DNA of 64,000 nt, taken from assembly GCA_964016885.1 (NCBI GenBank), contig OZ024755.1:35960001-36024000 (forward strand), given 5' to 3'. This DNA comes from Eledone cirrhosa. Taxonomy: Eukaryota. Below, piece after piece: positions 21,721-55,527 of this stretch. A program made the translations under genes and the position numbers. Under the pieces are notes generated by a model. The model made no database searches. It saw only the letters and a list, made by a program, of their open reading frames with translations, and was not told the DNA's origin. How positions within the stretch are numbered: the first letter of the stretch is position 1; each line of letters begins with the position of its first letter.

Positions 21721-22267
21721 TCATTCAATTTTACGTCCGCTTTTCCCTGCTTGCAAGGGTGGGACGGGAACTGATTCTGGCATGATTTCTACAGCTGGAT
21801 GCCCTTCCTAACACCAACATCATTTACAGTGAGTGCTGGGTGCTTTTTTGCCGTGGTACCTCCACGACCACTTTGCAGTGGAATGATAGGGACCCCAGTC
21901 CCTATCATCTCATTTCTACAGCTGAGTAAACTGGAGCAATGTGAAATAAAGTGTCTTGCTCAAGGAAACAACACATCACCCAGTCTGAGAATTGAACTCA
22001 CAACCTTTCGATTGCAAGGCCAATGCTCTAACCACTAAGCCATGTGCCTCCATATATATATATATCGTCGTCGTCATCGTTATCATTATCATTATCATCA
22101 TCATCATCATCATTTTACGTCCGCTTTTCCCTGCTTGCCAGGGTGGGACAGGAACTGATTCTGGCTTGATTTCTACAGCTGGATGCCCTTCCTAACACCA
22201 ACCTCATTTACAGTGAGTGATGGGTGCTTTTTTGCCGTGGCGCCTACACGTCCACTTTACAGTGGAA

Positions 22268-51984: not shown

Positions 51985-51987
<3 letters not shown>

Positions 51988-52168
51988 GGAACGAGTAGGA
52001 CCCCGACGGCTGAGCTCAAGCCGTTTCGACGGCTAGTTTTGGACGTCGAAACGGCTTGAGCTCAGCCATCGGGGTCCTACTCATTCCTATTACCCACTCT
52101 ACTACCCTAAGTATTGAGTACTTTGGTGCGTTATGGTCCACCTGGTTCCTTACCACATTTCCTTCATT
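51985..52168 (+). mobile_element. Snap-back hairpin element, copy 2
   Basis: Inverted arms spanning 51985-52090 plus the conserved tail; inside (TA)n. Confidence 0.75.
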
Positions 52169-52564
52169 ATATATATATATACATATATATGATGCCTATT
52201 CACAAACGTTTGGAACTGATATTTTGAAAAAAATTATCTACAAGAAACAAAATAAGAATAAGATTTAACAATGTAATTTTAATTTGATATATTACAAAAA
52301 ATGATGTTTTCCAATTTTTCATGCATTACATTTTACATTGAGTAATATTGAAATGCAGAGTTTTACTCCATAAATTATATCACTGATTTAAAATCAATCA
52401 TCATTTTCTTACCAAAAAAAATGTGAAACGCAGCAAGGCGTGGGTAATTTGTCTAGTATATATATATAAATTAATAAATATATATACATATATAAGTATA
52501 TATATATATATATATATATAAATGCATATATGTGTGTGTGTTTGTATATATATGAATGTATGCA

Positions 52565-54610: not shown

Positions 54611-55053
54611 TTTGGCGGTACTCAGTAACAGAGAAGACCCGCCTTACCTAAATATATAGTAAAACCTACTCCAGCCAGTAGGCATCTCTAACAAAATACA
54701 CCCCGTCCCACCACCCCCACCCCCACCCGATCCACACCACCCCGTTCTATGTAAAGTTATGTTGGTGCCGCGCCTTCGAGGCCGAAACAAATGAGATCGT
54801 GTAGGTGTCACGACAAAAAAACACACAGTCCACGCTGTAATGTGGCCGTGTAGGCAACACGGTAAAAACCTCCCAGACCCACACTGTAAATGTGGTTGGT
54901 GTTAGGAAGGGCATCCAACTGTAGAAAACCTGCCAGACAGTCCTATGCGAGCAAGACAATCACTCTTGCCTCAAGTGGGACTACCCCCGTCCAAACCCAT
55001 GCAAGCGTGGAACACGGACGTTAAACGTTGATGATGATGATGATGATGATGAT
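54611..55053 (+). mobile_element. Meta-domain/RTE-tail SINE-like element with an atypical 5' region (copy 1)
   Basis: Colinear with 57526-57953 from TTTGGCG.TACTCAGTAA to (GAT)n. Confidence 0.75.
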
Positions 55054-55073
55054 ATATATATATATATATATAT

Positions 55074-55271
55074 ATAGGAACGAGTAGGACCCCGATGGCT
55101 GAGCTCAAGCCGTTTCGACGGCTAATTTTTTTTTAGTCCAGAATTAGCCGTCGAAACGGCTTGAGCTCAGCCGTCGGGGTTCTACTCGTTCCTATTACCC
55201 ACTCTACTACCCTAAGTATTGAGTACTTTGGTGCGTTATGGTCCATCTGGTTCCTTACCACATTTCTTTTG

Positions 55272-55272
<1 letters not shown>
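55074..55272 (+). mobile_element. Snap-back hairpin element, copy 3 (best preserved)
   Basis: Inverted arms spanning 55074-55195; the right arm reads GAAA-cggct tgagctc agccg-UC-gggg. Confidence 0.75.
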
Positions 55273-55318
<46 letters not shown>

Positions 55319-55369: not shown

Positions 55370-55527
55370 CATCATCATCATCGTTTCATTTTACGTCTGC
55401 TTCTCCCTGCTTGCAAGGGTGGGACAGGAACTGATTCTGGCTTGATTTCTACAGCTGGATGCCCTTCCTAACACCAACCTCATTTACAGTGAGTGCTGGG
55501 TTCTTTTTTTCAGTGACGCCTACACGT
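55370..55527 (-). mobile_element. SINE family A 3' part
   Basis: Tail and Meta-like domain. Confidence 0.8.

What the first reader, a model, noticed from the sequence alone, without database searches (positions are those of the whole stretch)
55074..55272. Snap-back family: a hammerhead whose 5' half is overwritten by a mirror copy of its 3' half (also at 10817 and 51985)
Seen: three copies, each with a ~45-55-bp-arm hairpin plus a conserved ~75-bp tail, embedded in (TA)n. The right arm is a clean HHR 3' half (..gccgtc-GAAA-cggct[tgagctc]agccg-UC-gggg). Where CUGAUGA should lie upstream of stem II (gacggctaatt/aattagccgtc) there is instead the reverse complement of that half. Arms differ between copies (GAGAATGTTTGA/TCAAACATTCTC versus GAACGAGTAGGA/TCCTACTCATTC) yet remain complementary within each copy. 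All left arms stop at the same ATAGG, where the element matches the TA repeat. Inference: the cDNA stalls in stem II, self-primes on that hairpin, copies back, and joins the target by TAT microhomology, so the ribozyme stem would act as a second-strand primer. Alternatively this is a fixed non-autonomous hairpin element. Either way it would yield long dsRNA, a potential ADAR or small-RNA substrate.
Basis: partly seen in the sequence, partly recalled or inferred. Interest (0 to 1): 0.8.

Follow-up and report, generated by a model that had tools for sequence, protein, structure and literature searches.

The report
Twin-primed Penelope retrotransposon stubs
These three hairpins are cut-short ends of a very abundant Penelope-type jumping gene, likely made when both strands of a cut TA repeat each start their own DNA copy and the two copies join head to head; their stopping points likely record where the element's RNA begins and where its ribozyme cuts.

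Summary
Observation confirmed; snap-back mechanism not supported. The hairpins are stubs of a 3,531-bp Penelope-like retrotransposon (Hydra-clade motifs, intact 717-aa ORF, tandem arrays). The genome holds 36,161 exact matches to the ribozyme's 3' half. Whole hammerheads exist (6,874 5' halves, mostly a U3-A8 core), but their native stem II strand is not the left-arm sequence. Both outer ends are fixed sites (+61 and +141); lone copies end at either. 95 of 99 short head-to-head pairs have one of each. The tail-less arm often reaches farther than the tailed arm, sometimes does not overlap it, and runs to 16 kb against 287 bp, which fold-back copying cannot give. Best reading: twin target-primed reverse transcription from two internal start sites. 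Inner ends pile up at about +1 (likely an RNA 5' end) and exactly at the hammerhead cut, +42 (likely in vivo cleavage). Run-off-and-jump products restart at the same two sites. The inverted, one-tailed layout is known; how it arises is an open question that these copies address. RNA data were uninformative. This scan reported the twin-priming reading before, on other DNA of this and other genomes.

The parts
55074..55127 (-). tail-less arm, element positions +61 to +8 (numbering: +1 is the A of TTT|AGTCC in hammerhead loop II)
55128..55134 (.). T-run at the head-to-head joint, longer than the native three T
55132..55195 (+). tailed arm, -3 to +61: 3' strand of stem II, GAAA (55153), stem III, cut site between 55175 and 55176, 3' strand of stem I
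55196..55275 (+). 80-bp tail, +62 to +141; in the parent it continues into the leader of the ORF
51985..52044 (-). second copy, tail-less arm +61 to +2 (reaches farther 5' than its partner)
52044..52170 (+). second copy, tailed arm +15 to +141
10818..10876 (-). third copy (older subfamily), tail-less arm ending at +3
10876..11016 (+). third copy, tailed arm +1 to +141
55053..55073 (.). (TA)n target, left half
55276..55316 (.). (TA)n target, right half

Best explanation
The hairpins are short stubs of an abundant Penelope-like retrotransposon, likely formed by twin priming rather than fold-back. Shown: the parent is a 3,531-bp tandem unit with one RT plus GIY-YIG ORF and a type I hammerhead at the unit junction; insertions sit in (TA)n; they have two fixed outer ends (+61, at the foot of stem I, and +141), both ending in TAT; nearly every inverted insertion has one of each; either arm can be the longer. 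Inferred: the endonuclease cuts both strands of (TA)n; one 3' end primes at +141, the other at +61, mostly on the same RNA; the two cDNAs run toward the RNA's 5' end and are joined head to head with trimming, microhomology or a few added bases. If the +141 copy stops at or before the second primer the arms do not overlap; if it goes through, a hairpin results. Inferred: most cDNAs run off an RNA 5' end near +1 (likely the transcription start inside the pseudo-LTR), which lies only 60 and 140 nt from the start sites and so yields stubs lacking the ribozyme's 5' half; a minority run off at +42, the hammerhead cut. Long and multi-unit copies would come from circular or read-through RNA.
For: Parent, ORF and arrays. 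Hammerhead topology in the parent. Mixed ends: 95 of 99 short pairs (p 6e-24 against independent ends), 15 of 15 more, and 13 of 13 long pairs with both ends in view (read). Tail-less arm farther 5' by 5 nt or more in 24 of 95, tailed arm in 16, within 4 nt in 55; 6 pairs do not overlap, L029 with the tailed arm starting at +61/62. Tail-less arm the longer in 8 of 13 long pairs, such as L122/L123, about 16.1 kb against 287 bp. Tips: 70 of 91 core-anchored arms end at -6..+8 and 11 carry the 5' half; 21 of 30 tail-anchored arms end at -4..+7, none beyond -4. 0 of 16 arms that span a whole unit (13 insertions) stop at -6..+8. Cut site: in the first 50 of 834 very short hairpins, 13 have both arms ending exactly at +42 with a foreign spacer, 5 more are perfect CCCCGGGG joints, and about 9 have one arm at +42 (read by eye; p 9e-6 for 13 of 50); 20 of 50 loci end at +42. 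Jump products restart at -3, +1, +1, +1, +2, +4 or at +41, +42, +42; L237 stops at +42 twice and L214 at -3 three times. In vitro, a Penelope protein cuts and extends both strands and starts at two internal sites that bound the tail (PMC11167929).
Against: No RNA data: one contig run covered nothing relevant, so neither the start site nor cleavage is seen in RNA. The test for a cap-templated extra G failed: G 49, A 8 of 100 at +1 against G 25, A 6 of 100 at a control site, p 0.55; hairpin spacers gave about 15 G against 10 C (by eye). Tips near +1 spread over about 14 nt. Some T before GGGG could be CpG decay of +41; the 7 of 50 cases preceded by A are not significant alone (p 0.12). For the 55 of 95 near-symmetric pairs fold-back is not excluded copy by copy. 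One RNA versus two is unsettled: arms differ by 1.42 within pairs against 3.66 between pairs, but L056 and L162 disagree at linked subfamily sites. PMC11167929 found equal use of the start sites on both strands, cleavage dispensable in vitro, and no RNA-seq reads ending at the cut site in the anole element. The parent hammerhead folds no better than shuffles (z 0.28).
Confidence: 0.8

Rival explanations
1. One reading: one cDNA stalls in stem II, folds back on the hairpin, copies itself and joins the target at TAT. A related self-priming idea was published for Penelope head-to-head palindromes.
For: 55 of 95 short pairs are symmetric within 4 nt; arms share subfamily letters; a few copies keep part of loop II (L061, L116, L148); PMC3846280 proposes self-priming.
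Against: Tail-less arms carry sequence absent from the tailed arm (24 of 95; 6 pairs non-overlapping; 16 kb against 287 bp); lone copies end at +61; kb-scale inversions break far from the ribozyme; the native stem II 5' strand is not in the hairpins; only 2 rare variants are shared by both arms against 56 in one arm.
Confidence: 0.06
2. Twin priming is right, but the stop near +1 is a road-block (folded stem II or bound protein), not the RNA's 5' end.
For: Tips spread from -6 to +8; T-runs are lengthened as in slippage; no cap-G signal; no RNA data.
Against: 0 of 16 unit-spanning arms stop there, and arrays pass the site up to five times; jumps to a new template start from -3..+4; the stop lies behind the stem's 3' strand, not at its foot (inference).
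Confidence: 0.2
3. A fixed non-autonomous hairpin element (MITE-like) that is copied as a unit.
For: One spacer recurs in 5 of 50 hairpins.
Against: Joints differ from copy to copy; arms pair by insertion, not left with left; the recurring spacer occurs in both subfamily types; only one end has the tail; the sequence is the junction of a coding retroelement.
Confidence: 0.01
4. Hairpins began as perfect fold-backs and the asymmetries arose later by deletion at the palindrome centre.
For: Perfect palindromes are unstable (general knowledge, recalled).
Against: Cannot give a 16-kb tail-less arm beside a 287-bp tailed arm, tips exactly at +42 or +61/62, or lone copies ending at +61; seen in copies 99-100% identical to the intact unit.
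Confidence: 0.03

Closest known systems
Hydra clade of C-terminal EN+ Penelope-like elements (Craig et al. 2021, PMC8557442; passages and part of the supplement read)
   Same: RWK-like motif (RWR here, RWK in 13 of 14 aligned homologs), DKT, CxCx5C linker, no CCHH, CxxC and CxH near the end, canonical hammerhead, (TA)n target, inverted 5'-truncated copy.
   Different: Unit 3.5 kb (clade generally under 3 kb); tail 80 bp (30-40 bp described); U3-A8 core and a long stem II; the listed Hydra-1_Obim has another hammerhead; this family's stem III motif was not found in that supplement.
Poseidon element of the green anole, PAc (Frangieh et al. 2024, PMC11167929; parts 1-2 of 4 and passages read)
   Same: Two internal reverse-transcription start sites bound the tail; both target strands cut and extended; AT-rich target; predicted dimer.
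   Different: Other clade; no strand bias of start sites in vitro and no RNA reads at the ribozyme cut, whereas here ends are almost always one of each and cDNA tips pile up at the cut.
Adineta vaga Penelope insertions with inverted pLTR and tail (PMC3846280; passages read)
   Same: Head-to-head arrangement, palindromic joints, one-sided tail, initiator-like motif in the pLTR.
   Different: Explained there by self-priming on an antisense template; the counts here favour two separately primed cDNAs.
L1 twin priming (recalled; no paper read)
   Same: Second target strand primes internally on the RNA; head-to-head joint with microhomology.
   Different: Here both start sites are fixed, lie near the RNA's 5' end, and usually give an inverted duplication, not a simple inversion.
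Animal non-LTR retrozymes (bioRxiv 10.64898/2026.07.22.740005; part 1 of 5 read)
   Same: Non-coding, hammerhead-derived, dependent on Penelope-like machinery.
   Different: Retrozymes are tandem units each with a whole ribozyme; these stubs have two half ribozymes and are dead-end products.

Membership tests
EN+ Penelope-like element (parent) | single ORF, RT followed by GIY-YIG endonuclease | tested here: met
   717-aa ORF with FDI..Y, LYRDD and VIY..YIG motifs by inspection; 2,049 homologs, the top one with a Pfam GIY-YIG hit. Pfam itself gave 0 families for P0001 and the PDB sequence search 0 hits.
EN+ Penelope-like element (parent) | tandem or partial tandem copies forming pseudo-LTRs | tested here: met
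   3,531-bp units, up to about 4.5 in a row
EN+ Penelope-like element (parent) | inverted 5'-truncated copy and one-sided tail | tested here: met
   tail is 80 bp rather than 30-40 bp
EN+ Penelope-like element (parent) | hammerhead in the pseudo-LTR | tested here: met
Hydra clade | RWK, DKT, CxCx5C linker, no CCHH, terminal CxxC and CxH | tested here: met
   (RWR in this protein)
Hydra clade | (TA)n targeting | tested here: met
Hydra clade | placement in an RT tree with reference elements | not tested
Neptune clade | CX2-5CxxC linker and CCHH motif | tested here: not met
   linker is CxCx5C, CCHH absent; my first guess, dropped
Type I hammerhead (window copies) | YUGANRA core and three stems in one molecule | tested here: not met
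   5' half absent from all three copies
Type I hammerhead (parent) | self-cleavage after GUC | not testable with these tools
   indirect only: cDNA tips pile up at +42; a U3-A8 core is reported in other Penelope hammerheads (PMC4209133)
MITE | uniform internal sequence, terminal inverted repeats at both ends | tested here: not met
   variable joints, one-sided tail
Non-LTR retrozyme | tandem non-coding units each with a complete hammerhead | tested here: not met
   stubs hold half ribozymes; the tandem unit is coding

The most novel reading that the evidence does not exclude
Tens of thousands of stubs are a fossil record of the Penelope reaction cycle: an obligate two-primer reaction that uses one start site per target strand (+141 and +61), runs off the element's own transcription start so that the mRNA yields mostly abortive hairpins, runs off the hammerhead cut (evidence that a Penelope ribozyme cleaves in vivo and that the cleaved RNA is a template), and jumps from those 5' ends to new RNA 3' ends; productive copies come only from circular or concatemeric RNA.
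Probability: 0.5. Interest if true: 0.7.

Novelty: new member of a known kind. Interest (0 to 1): 0.5.

Why it matters
[quoted passage not shown] This family offers intact young ORFs and tens of thousands of insertions whose ends discriminate between these models and predict exact positions (+1, +42, +61, +141) for RNA mapping and in vitro assays. At least 3,831 near-perfect hairpins could also be a source of double-stranded RNA when transcribed, which is untested.

Tried and rejected
Rfam scan: no hammerhead among the listed matches. The repeat finder was swamped by TA repeats. A CTGANGA-only pattern found about 11 whole ribozymes among 87 matches and missed the majority, which have a TTGANAA core. 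Pfam and PDB sequence searches did not name the protein. Neptune as clade: rejected on motifs. Cap-G test for a capped 5' end: inconclusive. Target-site duplications cannot be read inside (TA)n and were not scored. No structure prediction or tree was run. A sequence look-up of earlier findings returned nothing. The first tip script (ungapped) misplaced diverged long arms and two partners; one search replaced it, and still underestimates L116 and L148, which by eye keep part of loop II.

Full report
Observation. The three copies are present as described, each between (TA)n tracts. Each folds into one long hairpin plus a tail. The window is part of a 3.0-Gb animal assembly. A 29-letter core pattern has 36,161 exact matches, the reversed control 0.

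The parent. A pattern for whole ribozymes gave 87 matches, about 11 of them non-inverted hammerheads. Upstream of two of these lay RT and endonuclease fragments. A protein search scored 141 of 58,338 candidates, many with open frames of about 784 codons and some spaced 3.53 kb apart. One array (L122, L123) holds near-identical 3,531-bp units with a 717-aa ORF. I number from +1, the A of TTT|AGTCC in loop II: the ribozyme cut falls after +41, the short end at +61, the long end at +141, the ATG at +232. The junction folds as a type I hammerhead whose stem I ends at about +61 (z 0.28, so topology only). A pattern for the 5' half has 6,874 matches, mostly TTGANAA in the 100 listed; a U3-A8 core is reported for other Penelope ribozymes (PMC4209133, passages). 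The native 5' strand of stem II is G(A/T/C)TCGGCTATT, so the left arm's gacggctaatt is mirror sequence, not native. The protein shows RWR, DKT, CxCx5C, no CCHH, terminal CxxC and CxH, the features listed for the Hydra clade (PMC8557442, passages; alignment). Pfam and PDB searches did not name it; no tree was built. The paper's supplement lists one octopus Hydra family with a different ribozyme (part 2 of 59 read, plus searches). That the host is a cephalopod is my guess from recall, untested.

Two fixed outer ends. Lone copies end at +61 or at +141, both after TAT. Among 99 short head-to-head pairs pooled from all loci then held (some sets were selected for a tail or for long arms), 95 had one tailed and one tail-less arm, 3 two tails, 1 none. 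All 15 loci were mixed as well, and so were 13 of 13 long pairs with both ends in view (read). The one-sided tail and inverted copy are the known Penelope layout (PMC8557442, PMC3846280), and two internal start sites bounding the tail were shown in vitro for an anole element that cuts and extends both strands (PMC11167929, parts 1-2 of 4).

Fold-back fails. A mirror arm copied from the tailed cDNA cannot hold sequence that the tailed arm lacks. Yet the tail-less arm reaches farther 5' by 5 nt or more in 24 of 95 short pairs (the tailed arm in 16, within 4 nt in 55), including the window's 51985 copy; 6 pairs do not overlap at all, one with the tailed arm starting at +61/62. In 8 of 13 long pairs the tail-less arm is the longer, up to about 16.1 kb against 287 bp. 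Arms of a pair differ by 1.42 letters over +20..+58 against 3.66 between pairs; rare variants are shared by both arms 2 times and confined to one arm 56 times; L056 and L162 disagree at linked subfamily sites. This fits two cDNAs, mostly from one RNA or one source, and does not settle one RNA against two. For symmetric pairs fold-back cannot be excluded one by one.

Where the arms stop. Of 91 core-anchored arms (the positions listed first, of which most were fetched), 70 end at -6..+8 and 11 carry the ribozyme's 5' half; of 30 tail-anchored arms 21 end at -4..+7 and none passes -4. 3,831 hairpins have both arms reaching +1, often with lengthened T-runs. By contrast 0 of 16 arms that span a whole unit (13 insertions, 30 loci examined) stop there, and arrays pass the site repeatedly, which argues against an intrinsic block. 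Nine of those 30 loci are run-off-and-jump products: the first segment begins at -3, +1, +1, +1, +2, +4 or +41, +42, +42 and is preceded by a second segment that ends at +203 to +959; L237 stops at +42 twice, L214 at -3 three times. So an RNA with a 5' end near +1 reaches into the ORF. TTAGTC resembles an initiator (recalled), and the Drosophila Penelope promoter lies in the pseudo-LTR (PMC2377424, passages). A test for a cap-templated G was inconclusive: G 49 and A 8 of 100 at +1 against G 25 and A 6 of 100 at a control site, p 0.55 (tallied by eye).

The ribozyme cut. 834 very short hairpins were counted; among the first 50, 13 have both arms ending exactly at +42 with a foreign spacer, 5 are perfect CCCCGGGG joints and about 9 have one arm at +42 (by eye; 6 and 2 of the 15 printed; p 9e-6 for 13 of 50 against a flat 1 in 16). 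20 of 50 distinct loci also end at +42 (a few overlap). CpG decay could mimic some T-preceded cases; the 7 A-preceded cases alone are not significant (p 0.12). The simplest reading is that self-cleaved RNA serves as template in a minority of events. This contrasts with the anole study, which found cleavage dispensable and no reads at the cut.

Model. Shown: parent, target, two fixed ends, one of each per insertion, independent arm lengths, two tip clusters. Inferred: both target strands prime, at +141 and +61; cDNAs run off RNA 5' ends at about +1 (likely transcription start) or +42 (cleavage) and are end-joined; long and multi-unit copies need circular or read-through RNA, as proposed in PMC4209133. 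No RNA data bore on this, so expression, editing and small RNAs are untested.

Novelty. The element kind and the layout are known; the family appears unlisted in the one supplement searched. Paper searches for Penelope-like with twin priming, with head-to-head self-priming and with template jumps, gave no listing whose title or abstract start proposes this two-site twin-priming account; I read only the listings of those hits apart from the six papers named, the library lacks most subscription papers, and the bioRxiv supplement was not seen. Earlier notes of this scan reached the twin-priming reading on other DNA of this and other genomes (read after my notes); they are not independent support. 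Interest 0.5.

Noticed in passing
window 32095-34802: A second hammerhead-bearing family with the same layout at kb scale: a 294-bp inverted tail-less arm (32095-32388) joined to a 2.4-kb arm with a roughly 90-bp tail, between (TA)n; a broken endonuclease end matches P0001 at 36% (32376-32591). A related ribozyme lies near 9950.
   Followed up: partly
L126/L127 (G000:C1:91471000-91490999): An array of about four units whose 5' tip continues into more than 30 tandem copies of a 55-bp piece of the ORF, possibly repeated template slippage or jumping.
   Followed up: no
L214:1308-2034: The segment -3..+254 occurs twice in a row before the last segment, as if one short RNA were copied round more than once.
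   Followed up: partly
L023, L027, L042, L069, L094: A sister family with another stem II and stem III sequence makes the same hairpins; L023 holds a nearly whole ribozyme of it.
   Followed up: no
listing: Roughly a fifth of listed cores read CTGANAA (C3 with A8, a mismatch) rather than U3-A8 or C3-G8; whether these cleave, and whether they lack tips at +42, is testable.
   Followed up: no
window 54770-55030, 55380-55520, 10640-10770, 11050-11390: The hairpins sit next to SINE-like repeats ending in (GAT)n; two weak tRNA-like Rfam hits at 21981-22044 and 30560-30617, no ARAGORN gene.
   Followed up: no
L031, L032: Old, diverged relatives with CTGANGA directly followed by GACGGCT and a long stem II.
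   Followed up: partly
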